Positions 50,401 to 56,400 of a stretch of 64,000 nucleotides of DNA are shown in pieces. The stretch lies in assembly GCF_963506605.1 (NCBI RefSeq), contig NC_083279.1, forward strand, positions 43,152,001 through 43,216,000. Reading direction: 5' to 3'. Every line of letters begins with the position of its first letter. Within the stretch, counting starts at the first letter, position 1. Made by a program: the position numbers. Source of the stretch: Zootoca vivipara. Taxonomy: Eukaryota.

Positions 50401-53400
50401 AGTAACAGGAGCAAATGGCATAGAGGTTTTCTGGAGAGTACCACCTGCTATTCTAAATTTGAGAACGGGCCAATATTTCTTTAACCGAAATATGAGCCCC
50501 AAGAGCCTAGAGCAAATTGTTTATGCCAGTCAAGTGTTCTCTAGCTCATCAACACAATATGAAGCACAGTCTTTCAAAGTGACCCCAAGAGAAGAGCAGG
50601 CATTTAACTGGGGAAAGAAGTGACAACATGAGCACTGGGAGAAATGTACCGTGCCAAGTGGTTTAAAGAGTCACAACCTTGTCCTGGGAGAAGGTTAAGA
50701 TCCTTCCTGAAACTCTTCAGTCTAGAGGTTTGAGGGTTTTTTAGAGGTTAGGGCAGGGCACTCTATGCTCATTCCTGAGTCAAGTACTAACCACCTTCCA
50801 GATTCATATAATATGATACACCTCTGTCATTAATGTTTTGGTTTAATGGGGTCTTTTCCTTATCACAGGAGTATTCAGGCAGGAGTATTCAGATCAGTTT
50901 ATCAGGCTTAGGAAAGCCCACTTTTCTGGCCTTAGCAAAGCCTACTCTAACAAAGTTAAGGGTGTCTGATTTAGCCGATTCAATTCCATTGGCTTTGTTA
51001 ACTTGGACTGTAAGGAAACATTCTCTTGCCATTAGCTTTCTGCTATAATCACTAAATTATCAGCTCCACTCATGAAAATGCAGAAGAGCGGACAGTACTT
51101 TGGTAGGCTAGCAGGTACTTTATAGCAAATTAGCACATTTCTCATGTGTGTGAAATTTTAATGAAGTTTTCCTTTCCTTCTTGATTTTCTTAGTAATATA
51201 GGCACCACCTTTTGGTTGCAAGGGTGAGAAATAACAAAATCACTCTACTGCATAACTGCTCTAATCAGCAAACCCCGCACACTAATTATAGAACTTCTGG
51301 AGTACCAAAGTCAGTGTTTAATTATTAAAGGAATTCAATTAAAGGAAGGTATTACTATGTTAACTGCAGCTGTGGTATACATATCTAATCAGTATACAAA
51401 GGTTAGCTTTTATATGTATACAAATGCATATGGGATGGGATCTGCAGTTTGGTAGAAGTATTATTCATGATTAACGAATAATTACTTTGATTTATTTTGG
51501 ATAAAGTATGTTCAGTGACTATCAAGCTTGTTCTCAATCATTGAAAATCTGAAATTGTTCTGTCCAAAGGGACAGGGACAGAACTTCACTAAAAGCTCCT
51601 ATTTTGTGGCAGTAAAACCCTGACAAGTATTGCACAGCTTGGAGGTAGAAACAAATGACCAGGGAACCACAAAGTGGCTCTAAATCAGGGGTGTCAAACT
51701 CAAATTCATCGGGGGCCGCATCAGCAGTTTGGTCACCCTCAAAGGGCCGGTTGTATCTGTAGGACTATGTGTCCACTCTTTATTATCATAAATTATTGTC
51801 ACTGCATTCAATTATTACTGTTTTTTGTAATAATGTAAGTAATAACTAGCTCTGAAAGCAGAAACATAGACAGAATAATGGCAAGTAGATATTCAAATGT
51901 GCAATTATTGTACAATTTATTGAAAAATGATTTTTGGTAACTGCACTGGGTGGTGGAGGCTCGCTAGGGTTTCATGCAGGACCTTTGCAGAGCTACTAGT
52001 ACCTGGAGATGCTGGGGTCCTTCTGCATGCAGGACAGCTGTTCTGCCAGTGAGCCACCACCCTTCACCAAAGGGACTGGCTGAGGTTGACTCACTGGAGC
52101 TGCTCTCCTGGTTCCAGGGTTAAAGGGCCAGAAGTATAAAGCAGCATCCTATGNNNNNNNNNNNNNNNNNNNNNNNNNNNNNNNNNNNNNNNNNNNNNNN
52201 NNNNNNNNNNNNNNNNNNNNNNNNNNNNNNNNNNNNNNNNNNNNNNNNNNNNNNNNNNNNNNNNNNNNNNNNNNNNNNNNNNNNNNNNNNNAGGAAATAA
52301 GGAAGGGAATAAAGAAGGAAAGAAAAAGAAAGAGGGAGAGAAGAGGGAAAGGGAGAAAGAAGGAAGGAAGTAGAGGGAAAGAAAGAATAAGAATGAGGGA
52401 GAGGAAGAAAGATGGGAAGGACGGAAGGAAGAAAGGAAGGAAGGAAGGAAGAAAAGAGGGAGCAGGAGGGAGAGAGGAAGGAAAGAGGTGAGAGAAAGAA
52501 GAGTAGGAAAGAAGGAATAAAGAAGGAATAAGAACGAGAGAGAGGAAGAAAGAAAGGGAAGGGGGGGTTGCCGCCTTGATTCAGGGCCAGAAAAGAGCGC
52601 GAAGGGACCCGACCCCCCCCCCCCCGGCCCCAGCTGTTTGTCGGCGCTTTGTCGGCGCGGCGCTTCAGCAGCAAGGTCCCGCTGCTGGGTCCCGCTGGCT
52701 GGGGCGCTCGGCGGGCCACATGATGAGGTCTGGCGGGCCGGATTTGGCCCCCGGGCCTTGTGTTTGACACCCATGCTCTAAATGGACAGAGACTGAATTG
52801 AAGCCTCTATTGTGAAAAGTCTATATTACTTTCGTTGCTCTGTGTGATTATACTGAACTAACACTGTTCAGTTCTTTGTTGCAGGAACTTATAATTACCT
52901 CTCAGAGTTGATACAGCTACAAGTTTGTAAGAGGAATGGCTTCCGGGTTCAGCGCCAGCGTCGATCGGCGGGGCTTCGTCTCGTCTCCGAGACGGCCCGT
53001 CTCTGCTAGGAGTGGGGAGGGCAGCGAGAGCGACGCTGCGCCCCTTAGAACCTCGGGAAGGGCGTCCCGAGGGCAATTTGCTCGGCACAGACCCAATCCG
53101 GACTCCCCAACTCTTCGGCTAGCTCTAATAAGAGCTCCGGAGCGAGGAGGGTAGAAGTCGCGGGGGCCATTTTGAGCGGCAACGTTATTCTAGCAGGGAG
53201 AAGCTTCAAGCCGAAGGCGGAGAGCGCTGGATTCTTCCGAAAATAAAATGATTGGAAAAGACTGTAAGTAACCTCATGATTTGGATTATTATAAAACAAT
53301 TTGGATCTGGGAGAGAGGGGAGAAAAGAGGAAGCCACCCCCCCCCACGGCAACAAAAGAGACAGTAAATAGAAACCCGAGGCCATAAACAGAAGATTTAC

Positions 53401-56400
53401 AATTCAAAGGATCCCTCAAAGGCATCAAAGAGAATCTCCCCTTTGATGCAGGGTGAAAAGGGGAGAGAGACTGCGGTTTATGACTGCTCTGCAATAAGAG
53501 GTACAGCCTAAGAAAAAAAACCTTTCCACTCGGGAGCCGGCAGCCCAGACAACCCAGTGAGTTGTCAGGATTTATGAGTCAAATTTTACTTCACTTTGTA
53601 TTTCTGGACTTTGTGGAATCTCTTTTTTGGCTTAAGTGTTTGTGAAATGTGAGTTCGAACTTTATTGTTAATAAGACTTGAAGAATGCAGCCAGCTTGTT
53701 AAAATGGAGTCGAAAAATAAACTGTGATCATATTCCACCCCACGTGACAAGTTTTGACCTTGGCAGGACTGAAATATGTCAACAAAAAAGTGTTCCCCTG
53801 AGTTCCAGCGGTCTGTTTTGACCTTAATGTGGGAAACAAGAATAGAGTTATGTCAAGAGGAGACACGACGGCAAGAGTTACAGGAAAAATTCCAGGAGGT
53901 GATGGCGGAATATGATTTTTTAGGAGATGAAGCTTTGGACACTGAAAAAGATGAATGTGAGAATGACAATGATGGGGAAGGAAAAGAAGAAGATGAGGAT
54001 TGTGATGATTCAACACAAAATGAAGCACACCACGAAAAAAATGATGACTCTACTCTACAAAAAGTTGGATGGAGTGCCCTGCTTTTGAGGGGGGCGCGAT
54101 TGGTATCATTGGAACTCCAGAACGCCCACAGGGAAGAAGGAAAAAATATGCAGAGAAGAGAAGAAATTCAGGGGTCCTGTATGGTGGCCTGGATGACAAA
54201 AGACTGTAAACAGGGGGTGGGGTGAAGGGAAAGTGATGTTGTGATTAAGGATGGATTAACAGGTTTATAACTGGTCTGCTGATTTTGGAATTTGCTGGAT
54301 TGGGGGGGGAAGCCGGCAATCGGGGATGTAAGGTTAAATTGAGAATAGTTATAGTTTTAAAAGTGAATGGATTTTGGAAAATGTGAAAATATGGAGGCTT
54401 ATAGAGGGAGAAAAAACAAAAAATTAGGCACGGGAAGAGAAAATGGGAGTTTGATTTCTCAGTGATTTGAATATTAGATGAAAATGTTAACAATTGATTT
54501 ATAAGTTGTATAAGATGCAAAGGTGTATTTTTATAAAGTAAGAAACTGTTGCAGATGATAAAAAAGGGATGAAAACCGGGGAAGGGGGGGGAGGGGAAGC
54601 CCACAAAATATGGTTTTACAACTATGAATGCAAGAAAATTTTTTTGTTTTGTATTGTTTTTTCTTTTTTCTTTTTTCGCTCTTTCTTTTTTTTTCCCCCC
54701 TTTTTTCTATTTCTATTTTTCTCTTTTTTTTTTTTTTGGTATGACAATAGATGGTTGGATGGATGTCCTCCTGCGTACTGCCCTGGTTTGCTGGAGCTCC
54801 CTGGTGGCAGGGGGGGGCTTTGGGGTCAGGGGAGGGGGGGGAGGACAGAAACCCAAGCATAAAATGGACCATCTCTGACTGTTCACATACATGGGATACT
54901 TCTGTGGCAGGGGAGGACCCATGTGGGTGGGTAGGAAGGAGGTGGAAAAGGGGTTTAAGTATGTACCTTTTTTTTTTTTTGCTTTTTTGTATTTTGTAAA
55001 ATTAATAAAAAGTATGTTCAAAAAAAAAAAAGTTTGTAAGAGGAATTAAAGTGAGGAAGGGGTAGGAATATAGACTACTACTCTTCCAGGCAGAACTAGG
55101 AAGAACAATGACTACATGAACAGTGATCCTCCTCAATGGAAAATAAGTGCCATATATTCCTTTAGTAGCTAATTAAAAATAAAACACATCCTAATTATTT
55201 TTCTAGCATTAGTTCTTTACAATAAAACTGATCTTTGAAATTAAGGCAAACATTAGATGGCCTGCTTAAAATGTTAATGAAGAAACTAGCATAAAATGAC
55301 AAGAGTGCTTTGCAGTCTTTTAATGTCTCAACACTTAGAAGATGCTAATTCACTAACACTGTACTAAGGTCTCCTTTTAAGCCCGGGAAAAAATGGAATC
55401 TTTCAAAAAGTTATAGAAAAGGGTATGCGGGGTTATTTTTCTTTTGAATTATTCCTCTCCTCCTTTCTCTTATGAGTATGATGTGGTACCTGATATGTTA
55501 AATTTTGGACACTAACTTCTTTTGTCTCAGTGTATCACCAGTATATATCACTAACCGTATATATTGTTTACAACTTTTTTGGGGTGCAGAAGTATTGCTG
55601 TGACAGCGAGATAACTCCAGACAAACATATGTGAGTTTACAAGGAAAGAAAATATATATTATTACCTTGCTCCAGGCGACTTCAGCATCTAAATTGATAG
55701 GCATGCCTTCTACTGCTGATCTCTTTGTCAGTTCTGAATCTGTCACTGCCAGCCATTCTGTCAGAGCATTCATTTCCTTTCTCAGTTTCCGAGATAATTT
55801 CAAACATTTCTCCAGTTCTTGCTTTTTTTCAGTCACCTGCAGAAGGGGGAGGGGGAATGAAGAGCCAAACCTCTAAATGCTTCACCACCCTAAGTGCTAC
55901 TGAGACGGATGCTCATATTTCTGGCAGTAGTTTTTCTCCTGGTCAAAAGATTCCACCATCAAGTCCCCATGATTGTAGAGGTCATCTACCCTCCGTTTCA
56001 CATCTACAGTTCCCAGAAATGCTAAATCTTTTTATAGCAAACATATGACAAGAATACACCTCAGAACATTAGCCTTTTTCATTACACTGTAGATTACATT
56101 CTTTTGTCAGTACTAGATTGGCATTCTGCTTATAGCAAACCAACTACGTCACACTGAAACAAAAACAGAATGGCTAGATAAATTATAATTTGCAAAGCTA
56201 GCTTCAATAAAAGAAACAAAATGAAGATTAAAAGTATGCTTTAACTCGGTGCTCTTTATGCATATTTAAGTACACTGCAGTCATGTTTTATGTCCTTTTA
56301 ACGCCAACCTTCAGAATTTATTGATTCAATAAAAGTTGTTTTCATCGAGCTCAGCCTGCAACTCCTGTCTCTTGTTCATTTTATTTTTATTTTCTTTAAA

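What the first reader, a model, noticed from the sequence alone, without database searches (positions are those of the whole stretch)
52938..55030. Complete 2.1-kb RT-less retroelement: CpG promoter head, one short ORF, poly(A), 16-bp TSD
Seen: TPRT hallmarks (perfect 16-bp TSD, AATAAA, poly(A)). The 5' end looks intact: GGCTTCCGG (ETS-like), ~290 bp of undecayed CpG-rich DNA and a YY1-type GCCATTTTG at 53166-53174. A 149-aa coiled-coil-like/acidic ORF and a G/T-rich 3' region follow. There is no endonuclease, RT, recognisable L1 ORF1 RRM or tRNA head. Established: L1 machinery mobilises polyadenylated RNAs in trans, and HAL1 elements carry only an ORF1. Inference: a young Pol II-driven non-autonomous L1 parasite with its own small protein, possibly an undescribed lacertid family (a mimic or modulator of the ORF1p coiled coil is one hypothesis). 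This is the best candidate for a new system in the window.
Basis: partly seen in the sequence, partly recalled or inferred. Interest (0 to 1): 0.75.

Follow-up and report, generated by a model that had tools for sequence, protein, structure and literature searches.

The report
Processed RNA copy in dystrophin intron
A 2.1-kb copy of a polyadenylated RNA was pasted by a borrowed LINE-type reverse transcriptase into an intron of the dystrophin gene; it has no enzyme of its own and one orphan 149-codon reading frame, and whether it is a one-off retrocopy or a new repeat family could not be tested here.

Summary
Window 52938-55030 (+) is one clean retroposed insert. It has a perfect 17-bp target-site duplication, AATAAA 10 nt before a pure 12-A tail, a 302-bp CpG-rich head (CpG o/e 1.04 against 0.27 for the window), a 149-aa ATG-ORF and a T/G-rich 3' part. 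No RT, endonuclease, L1 ORF1 domain, Pol III head or Rfam family was found on either strand.

The ORF is longer than chance (6-9 of 3000 local shuffles reach it). It is an orphan: 0 hits in 1.84 billion representative proteins, Pfam and PDB. Eight upstream ATGs precede it, and its heptad signal is weak and short.

The insert lies antisense in a 7.9-kb intron of a dystrophin-like gene, 619 bp from a splice donor. The window holds no second copy and no L1.

Supported: L1-type, poly(A)-primed insertion in trans of an RNA that is not a recognisable LINE. Not tested: copy number, a shared 5' start among copies, and ORF preservation. No collection of eukaryotic genomes was on hand.

I lean slightly towards a dead-on-arrival retrocopy of a lineage-restricted host transcript (0.45) over a self-propagating family (0.35). 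Interest is modest unless a genome-wide search finds copies.

The parts
52921..52937 (+). left target-site duplication, AAGTTTGTAAGAGGAAT
   Evidence: 17 of 17 bases identical to 55030-55046
52938..53239 (+). CpG-rich head (likely first exon / 5' UTR of a Pol II transcript); starts GGCTTCCGG
   Evidence: 31 CpG in 302 bp, o/e 1.04, GC 0.63; GC change point at 53230; unique in the window. No ATG, but that is not unusual for its dinucleotide content (1896 of 5000 shuffles also have none)
53240..53775 (+). AT-richer leader with 8 upstream ATGs and two unused AATAAA (53242, 53716)
   Evidence: uORFs of 1-31 codons; 53248 and 53704 have A at -3, and 53704 also G at +4
53776..54225 (+). 149-aa orphan ORF: helix-prone N-terminus, D/E-rich middle (51-95), basic C-terminus
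   Evidence: no homologue
54226..55003 (+). 3' region: G-runs, two G4-type motifs at 54578-54596 and 54810-54841, and a ~100-nt T-rich tract at 54639-54737
   Evidence: no VNTR; the weak Rfam HYMAI match was rejected
55004..55009 (+). polyadenylation signal AATAAA
   Evidence: 10 nt upstream of the tail
55020..55031 (+). poly(A) tail, 12 uninterrupted A (last two shared with the TSD)
55030..55046 (+). right target-site duplication
55666..55836 (-). context: 171-bp dystrophin-like exon bounded by AG/GT; the insert lies 619 bp downstream of its donor site, antisense
   Evidence: PDB 9c3c_D residues 1558-1616, E 4.2e-25; splice sites read
47558..47737 (-). context: next dystrophin-like exon (180 bp); it closes the 7,928-bp intron (as assembled, with one N run) that holds the insert
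   Evidence: PDB 9c3c_D residues 1616-1676, E 9.3e-18; splice sites read

Best explanation
A capped, cleaved and polyadenylated RNA polymerase II transcript of about 2.08 kb was copied into the genome in trans by the endonuclease/reverse transcriptase of a poly(A)-using LINE of the L1 type.

Inferred steps:
1. The bottom strand of a dystrophin intron was nicked at 5'-AAACTT/GTAGCT-3'.
2. [quoted passage not shown]
3. A second nick 15-17 bp away produced the duplication.

The RNA was not a LINE. Its first ~300 nt look like the CpG-island first exon of a spliced transcript, and the rest is CpG-poor and mosaic in composition.

The source was most likely a lineage-restricted host transcript. It could be lncRNA-like or carry an orphan small ORF, for instance of the highly expressed non-coding host-gene type. 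On this reading the copy is a dead-on-arrival processed retrocopy sitting antisense in the intron.

Shown: the insertion hallmarks, the lack of any enzyme, and the orphan status of the ORF. Inferred: L1 as the driver, splicing of the source RNA, and single or low copy number.
For: Retroposition hallmarks:
- A perfect 17-bp TSD, AATAAA 10 nt before a pure A12 tail, and insert boundaries exactly at the repeat.
- It is the only such case among the 12 A/T runs of the window.

In trans:
- No Pfam family passes its cut-off in any of the 15 + frames tested (0 of 15) or the 12 - frames tested (0 of 12).
- There are no tRNAs in the window and no Rfam family at gathering score.

L1-type driver rather than Bov-B:
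- Squamate Bov-B LINEs end in (CAA)n and Sauria SINEs in (ACCTTT)n, with a Tn-TA signature before the TSD (PMC13295347, passages).
- This insert ends in plain poly(A), has no T-run before the TSD, and shares nothing with the window's RT-bearing LINE fragment.
- In chordates retrocopy number tracks L1 number, and 404 retrocopies were counted in Anolis (PMC3136929, passages and Table 1).
- Anolis carries 20 young, low-copy L1 families (PMC3787681, passages).

Host-transcript reading:
- The sharp change at about 53230 from a CpG-island-like head to a CpG-poor body is what an exon 1-exon 2 junction gives.
- Eight uATGs precede the ORF.
- The ORF has 0 relatives among 1,835,955,588 representative proteins. 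An ORF-bearing multi-copy family would often have left predicted proteins there.
- There is no second copy or fragment in the 64 kb.
Against: - No parent locus was found or could be sought, so 'retrocopy' rests on architecture alone.
- The ORF is longer than chance (6-9 of 3000 shuffles), and its ATG is the second codon of the open frame. That fits a real gene carried by a mobile element as well as a host gene.
- A full-length copy with an intact CpG-rich 5' end, about 840 nt of leader before the ORF, a C-poor sense strand (15.9% C) and G-rich 3' tracts also resembles L1-like or SVA-like element design.
- Full-length retrocopies of conserved protein-coding genes would have matched a protein. 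This argues against the commonest kind of retrocopy and raises the relative odds of a repeat family.
- The nick site ACTT/GT fits the L1 consensus TTTT/AA (recalled) only partly.
- The absence of protein hits is weak evidence, because small ORFs in masked repeats are rarely annotated.
Confidence: 0.45

Rival explanations
1. It is a member of an undescribed, multi-copy, non-autonomous retrotransposon family. The CpG-rich head is a portable Pol II promoter or first exon, the element carries its own small protein, and L1 ORF2p moves it in trans.
For: - The copy is full length with an intact CpG-rich 5' end and clean TPRT hallmarks.
- The ORF is significantly long and the longest ATG-ORF on the + strand of the window.
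- It does not match any conserved host protein, unlike most retrocopies.
- The layout of long leader, ORF and 3' UTR is L1-like, with a C-poor sense strand and G4-type tracts in the 3' part.
- There is a precedent for a captured CpG-rich first exon driving a non-autonomous element: the MAST2 exon 1-SVA subfamily (PMC5753468, passages).
Against: - No second copy or fragment lies in the 64 kb.
- There are 0 protein relatives anywhere.
- Eight uATGs stand before the ORF.
- No VNTR or recognisable TE module is present.
- The promoter motifs are single words, one of them at chance level.
- Nothing of the kind surfaced for lacertids in the listings of three literature searches.
- Copy number is wholly untested.
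Confidence: 0.35
2. It is an internally deleted or recombinant L1: an L1 5' UTR, the start of ORF1 and an L1 3' UTR, having lost the RRM/CTD of ORF1 and all of ORF2.
For: - The layout (CpG-rich 5' UTR, ~840-nt leader, ORF with a helix-prone N-terminus, 3' UTR with G-rich tracts, poly(A)) matches L1 design.
- L1 UTRs and coiled coils evolve too fast for protein searches to catch. [quoted passage not shown]
Against: - No L1 ORF1 or ORF2 Pfam family was found in any frame.
- No L1 ORF1p chain of the PDB matched even at E up to 10.
- No relative was found in 1.84 billion proteins.
- The heptad signal covers at most about 6 heptads and is weak.
- The window has no L1 to compare with.
Confidence: 0.08
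3. It is a 5'-truncated retrocopy of an ordinary protein-coding mRNA. The GC-rich head is the end of the coding region, the remaining ~1.9 kb is 3' UTR, and the 149-aa ORF is a chance frame.
For: Two frames are open from the first base of the insert to 53119 and 53151. Long 3' UTRs and 5' truncation are common in retrocopies (established knowledge).
Against: - Both head frames gave no hit among longer proteins: 223 and 341 candidates, none at E up to 0.001 (weak evidence by the tool's own note).
- Neither frame gave a Pfam family.
- CpG o/e of 1.04 is typical of a promoter-proximal island, not of a gene's 3' end.
- The insert starts with an ETS-type word that is common at transcription starts (recalled).
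- The 149-aa ORF is unlikely by chance.
Confidence: 0.07

Closest known systems
L1-mediated processed retrocopy (processed pseudogene / retroCNV)
   Same: TSD of 15-17 bp, AATAAA plus poly(A), no enzyme of its own, no second copy in the window, antisense position in an intron.
   Different: No parent gene was identified and no known protein is encoded. If it has a parent, that parent is non-coding or an orphan gene, which is a rarer source than housekeeping mRNAs.
HAL1 (half-L1), a non-autonomous L1 derivative that encodes only ORF1p (PMC5753468, passages)
   Same: RT-less, one ORF, poly(A)-type retroposition.
   Different: The ORF has no detectable relation to ORF1p: no Pfam ORF1 family and no PDB ORF1p match. 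L1-derived UTRs could not be tested.
SVA, especially the MAST2 exon 1-SVA subfamily (PMC5753468, passages)
   Same: A Pol II-transcribed, L1-dependent, non-coding-type element whose 5' end can be a captured CpG-rich first exon; G-rich sequence.
   Different: No hexamer repeat, VNTR, SINE or LTR-derived module. It carries an ORF. Copy number is unknown.
HeT-A of Drosophila telomeres (PMC5537684, seen only in a search listing; that it lacks RT is recalled)
   Same: A non-LTR retroelement with one ORF that borrows reverse transcriptase.
   Different: HeT-A encodes a Gag-like protein and targets chromosome ends. There is no similarity to it here, and this insert is interstitial.
Eg-R1-type non-autonomous retroelement encoding a peptide in a powdery mildew fungus (bioRxiv 10.1101/242271, title and abstract start in a listing)
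   Same: The idea of a non-autonomous retroelement that carries its own small protein.
   Different: It is a fungal, SINE-like element. The analogy is one of principle only, and nothing was compared.

Membership tests
L1-type processed retrocopy | Flanking target-site duplication of about 7-20 bp | tested here: met
   17 of 17 bp identical, and unique of its kind in the window
L1-type processed retrocopy | 3' poly(A) that follows a polyadenylation signal at mRNA distance | tested here: met
   AATAAA at 55004, 10 nt before A12
L1-type processed retrocopy | An intron-bearing parent locus whose spliced exons are collinear with the copy | not testable with these tools
   No eukaryotic genome collection was available. 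The only indirect sign is the sharp composition break at about 53230
L1-type processed retrocopy | Insertion at an L1 endonuclease-type site (TTTT/AA; consensus recalled) | tested here: inconclusive
   The bottom strand reads AAACTT/GTAGCT: TT before the nick, and G rather than A after it
HAL1 | Encodes an L1 ORF1p homologue | tested here: not met
   Pfam gave none at cut-off. PDB gave only YonE at E 0.37. There were 0 hits in 1.84 billion proteins
HAL1 | UTRs derived from an L1 family of the same genome | not testable with these tools
   No L1 lies in the window and no reference library was on hand
Autonomous L1 or other LINE | Endonuclease and reverse transcriptase ORF | tested here: not met
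   0 of 15 + frames and 0 of 12 - frames reach any Pfam cut-off
SVA-like composite retrotransposon | 5' simple repeat, VNTR and TE-derived modules | tested here: not met
   TRF and repeat scans show only a T-rich tract and G-runs. There is no match to the window's SINE or LINE copies
SINE | Pol III head (tRNA, 7SL or 5S) and short length | tested here: not met
   0 tRNAs, no Rfam match, 2.1 kb long
Any retrotransposon family | Multiple dispersed copies with different TSDs and a shared 5' start | not testable with these tools
   Only the window could be searched, and it holds 1 copy

The most novel reading that the evidence does not exclude
An undescribed squamate family of Pol II-driven, L1-dependent non-autonomous retrotransposons. 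It would use a captured CpG-island first exon as its portable promoter and carry an orphan 149-aa acidic protein (short amphipathic N-terminal helix, D/E-rich middle, basic tail) that acts on the L1 ribonucleoprotein or on the element's own RNA.
Probability: 0.3. Interest if true: 0.6.

Novelty: new member of a known kind. Interest (0 to 1): 0.3.

Why it matters
As it stands, this is a textbook product of LINE-driven retroposition. It is useful mainly as a marker that a poly(A)-using LINE has been active in this genome, and as an insertion 619 bp from a dystrophin splice donor that may be polymorphic.

It would matter more if copies exist. Outside primates (SVA) and the ORF1-bearing HAL1 elements, few Pol II-transcribed, L1-dependent parasites are known. 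One with its own unrelated protein would give a direct handle on how an RNA competes for ORF2p against L1's preference for acting on its own RNA. One BLASTN run against the source genome settles which case applies.

Tried and rejected
- **Rfam HYMAI match.** The match at 54767-55013 (25.6 bits against a gathering score of 80; E 0.026) aligns only G-runs and T-runs with low posterior probabilities. Rejected as compositional.
- **5' word shared with the SINE.** GCTTCCGGGT recurs with one mismatch in the window's SINE copies, but the head does not align with them. Coincidence.
- **ATG-free head as a sign of a selected 5' UTR.** Only 66 of 5000 mononucleotide shuffles lack ATG, but 1896 of 5000 dinucleotide shuffles do. 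Not evidence.
- **YY1-type word.** At chance level.
- **Head frames as the end of a coding region.** No relatives and no Pfam family.
- **Protein searches with the ORF.** Near-length search gave none of 17 candidates. The exhaustive search gave 0. Pfam gave only CDC45 at E 0.53. PDB gave only YonE at E 0.37.
- Structure prediction was not accepting jobs. There is therefore no fold, no fold search and no test of oligomerisation.
- **Copy number, the orthologous empty site, and comparison with Dfam/Repbase L1, Tx1 or HAL1.** Not possible. Genome contigs holds only bacteria and archaea, metagenome and viral contigs are closed, and the annotated collections hold phages, plasmids and E. coli.
- **Literature.** The listings showed no described lacertid element of this kind. 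That is not proof that none is in print, and supplementary repeat libraries could not be seen.

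
Full report
**1. What is there**

Window 52938-55030 on the + strand is a single, sharply bounded insert.

- It is flanked by the perfect direct repeat AAGTTTGTAAGAGGAAT at 52921-52937 and 55030-55046. That is 17 bp, or 15-17 bp because the first two A could belong to the tail.
- It ends in 12 uninterrupted A (55020-55031), 10 nt after AATAAA (55004-55009).
- Among all exact 15-mers repeated 0.2-8 kb apart in the window, this pair is the only one that is not part of a longer repeat or a microsatellite.
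- Of the 12 A- or T-runs of 9 or more in the window, it is the only one followed by an exact duplication of 11 bp or more within 7 kb.

The hallmarks of target-primed reverse transcription are therefore real and not chance.

**2. Anatomy**

- The first 302 bp (52938-53239) hold 31 CpG (o/e 1.04, GC 0.63). The remaining 1791 bp hold 22 (o/e 0.34, GC 0.40). The window average o/e is 0.27.
- The best GC change point is at 53230. No other 300-bp stretch of the window combines GC of 0.55 or more with o/e of 0.9 or more.
- The insert starts GGCTTCCGG.
- The 'YY1-type' GCCATTTTG is at 53166-74 as stated, but its core word is at chance frequency: 7 in the window, and 25 of 100 shuffles give at least 7.
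- The head has no ATG. That is explained by its dinucleotide content, since 1896 of 5000 shuffles have none either.
- A 536-nt leader follows, with 8 ATGs and two unused AATAAA.
- Then come the 149-aa ORF (53776-54225) and a 3' region with G-runs, two G4-type motifs and a ~100-nt T-rich tract.
- There is no VNTR or other internal repeat structure.
- The sense strand is C-poor (15.9% C). This explains why three long open frames lie on the antisense strand.

**3. The ORF**

- *Length:* an ATG-ORF of 149 aa or more on the + strand arises in 6 of 2000 dinucleotide shuffles of the insert. With shuffling inside blocks of 60, 150 and 300 nt, it arises in 8, 9 and 6 of 3000. For stop-to-stop frames the figures are 36 of 2000 and 29-34 of 3000.
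- *Rank:* in the whole window only two ATG-ORFs reach 149 aa on either strand.
- *Frame:* the ATG is the second codon of the open frame. First positions are G-rich (0.40) and second positions A-rich (0.46), driven by 37 D and E residues.
- I take the ORF to be real, or real until recently.
- *Against efficient translation:* eight upstream ATGs precede it. Both 53248 and 53704 have A at -3, and 53704 also has G at +4.
- *Composition:* the protein is acidic (pI 4.49). Residues 8-50 are helix-prone, residues 51-95 are D/E-rich (pI 4.05), and the C-terminus is basic (pI 9.3).
- *Heptads:* the heptad pattern is weak and short. 8 of 12 a/d positions are hydrophobic against 7 of 31 others, and 249 of 5000 shuffles match this.

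**4. Homology**

- No Pfam family reaches its cut-off for the ORF, for 15 + frames or for 12 - frames of the insert. That includes the L1 ORF1, RT and endonuclease families.
- The ORF has no relative among proteins of 81-261 aa (17 candidates).
- It has none among 1,835,955,588 representative proteins of any length.
- It has none in the PDB even at E up to 10, apart from a phage protein at E 0.37. It therefore matches no solved L1 ORF1p.
- The two head frames that are open from the first base found nothing among longer proteins. The tool itself calls this weak evidence.
- Rfam gave nothing at gathering score in the window. The one sub-threshold match (HYMAI) is compositional.
- ARAGORN found no tRNA.

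**5. Surroundings**

- The insert lies antisense in an intron of a dystrophin-like gene on the - strand.
  - The exon at 55666-55836 (171 bp, bounded by AG/GT) matches PDB dystrophin 9c3c_D residues 1558-1616 (E 4.2e-25).
  - The exon at 47558-47737 (180 bp) matches residues 1616-1676 (E 9.3e-18).
  - The two exons were searched one by one. The joined model was deliberately not made.
  - The intron is 7,928 bp as assembled and includes one N run, which was left untouched.
  - The insert's poly(A) end lies 619 bp from the splice donor.
- I do not take the window for human. It carries an RT-bearing LINE fragment at 34870-36153 (-) (RVT_1, E 5.6e-17) that I recognise by recall as Bov-B/RTE-like. 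It also carries a SINE-like family in four places that I recall as squamate.
- 'Lacertid' was not verifiable.
- One search scanned 26 of the 41 stop-to-stop ORFs of 110 aa or more. The 15 left out were the six that cross N runs, three overlapping duplicates, and the six of the insert, which searches covered.
- The window has no L1. The insert shares nothing with any other part of the window (blastn, word size 9, E up to 1e-3: self-hit only).

**6. Mechanism**

- *Shown:* the RNA had a canonical cleavage and polyadenylation site and no enzyme of its own, so it was reverse-transcribed in trans.
- *Inferred:* the driver was a poly(A)-using LINE of the L1 type.
[quoted passage not shown] None of this is seen here.
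  - Retrocopy numbers in chordates follow L1 numbers, with 404 retrocopies in Anolis (PMC3136929, passages and Table 1).
  - Anolis has 20 young, low-copy L1 families (PMC3787681, passages).
- *Nick site:* the bottom-strand nick reads AAACTT/GTAGCT. The TT can pair with poly(A). The fit to the recalled L1 consensus TTTT/AA is only partial.
- *Age:* the perfect TSD, the pure tail and the undecayed CpG in the head point to a recent event, but one copy alone cannot date it.

**7. Which RNA**

A full-length mRNA of a conserved protein-coding gene is excluded in practice, because no protein matches.

Points that fit a spliced host transcript with a CpG-island first exon, lncRNA-like or with an orphan small ORF:
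- the sharp break from head to body;
- the many uATGs;
- the orphan ORF;
- the lack of any copy or fragment nearby.

Points that equally fit an element built to propagate:
- a significantly long ORF;
- a full-length 5' end;
- the layout of long leader, ORF and UTR;
- strand asymmetry and G-rich 3' tracts.

There is a precedent for the second reading. The MAST2 exon 1-SVA subfamily captured a CpG-rich first exon (PMC5753468, passages).

My odds are:

| Reading | Confidence |
|---|---|
| One-off or low-copy retrocopy of a host transcript | 0.45 |
| Multi-copy non-autonomous family | 0.35 |
| Deleted L1 | 0.08 |
| 5'-truncated mRNA copy | 0.07 |

**8. Comparison with known kinds**

- It works like any L1-mobilised polyadenylated RNA.
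- It fails the defining test of HAL1, which encodes ORF1p (PMC5753468).
- It also fails the defining tests of LINEs (no RT or EN), of SVA (no VNTR or TE modules) and of SINEs (no Pol III head).
- It meets the two retrocopy tests that could be run (TSD, and signal plus tail). The parent-locus test could not be run.

**9. What stayed unchecked**

- Genome-wide copy number, the shared 5' start, ORF preservation and dN/dS.
- Comparison with Dfam and Repbase.
- The orthologous empty site.
- Any expression data.
- The fold of the ORF.
- The taxon of the window.
- Supplementary repeat libraries of the papers read, which could not be seen.

**10. Verdict**

The novelty is that of a new member of a known kind unless copies are found. 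Interest is 0.3. The boldest reading still open is a new ORF-bearing L1 parasite family, at about 0.3.

Noticed in passing
window 55666-55836 (-) and 47558-47737 (-): Two consecutive dystrophin-like exons (171 and 180 bp, bounded by AG/GT) match PDB 9c3c_D residues 1558-1616 and 1616-1676. The window therefore lies inside a dystrophin gene on the - strand. They were searched exon by exon and not joined.
   Followed up: partly
window 34870-36153 (-) and 15912-16182 (+): A decayed RT-bearing LINE fragment (RVT_1, E 5.6e-17), with frames broken into several ORFs. A second 277-bp copy of its 3' part is 88% identical. It looks Bov-B/RTE-like by recall only; the PDB search gives just generic R2 and L1 RT similarity at about 1e-8.
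   Followed up: partly
window 39274-39509, 46418-46729, 60423-60749 (-), 12722-12794: Four copies or pieces of one SINE-like family, 83-90% identical, with decayed CpG. I recall the sequence as a squamate SINE. The name was not tested.
   Followed up: partly
window 20295-21306 and 19611-20138 (-): A 510-bp unit is duplicated in tandem at 94.7% identity. It lies beside a GC-rich stretch (GC up to 0.69, CpG o/e about 0.65) that holds the window's longest ATG-ORF (175 aa, - strand), which has no Pfam match.
   Followed up: no
window 42750-42900: A perfect tandem duplication of a 72-bp unit (2.1 copies, 100% match), so very recent or an assembly effect.
   Followed up: no
window 52292-52790: A purine-rich (AAGG/AAAG)n tract of about 250 bp runs into a GC-rich stretch with short tandem units and a C-run. 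It lies directly after the N run 52154-52291 and 150 bp before the insertion site. This is probably the tail and body of another repeat on the - strand.
   Followed up: no
window 53045-55001 (-): Three of the window's seven stop-to-stop frames of 150 codons or more lie antisense within the insert (177, 153 and 156 codons), with no Pfam match. This is explained by the C-poor sense strand rather than by coding.
   Followed up: yes
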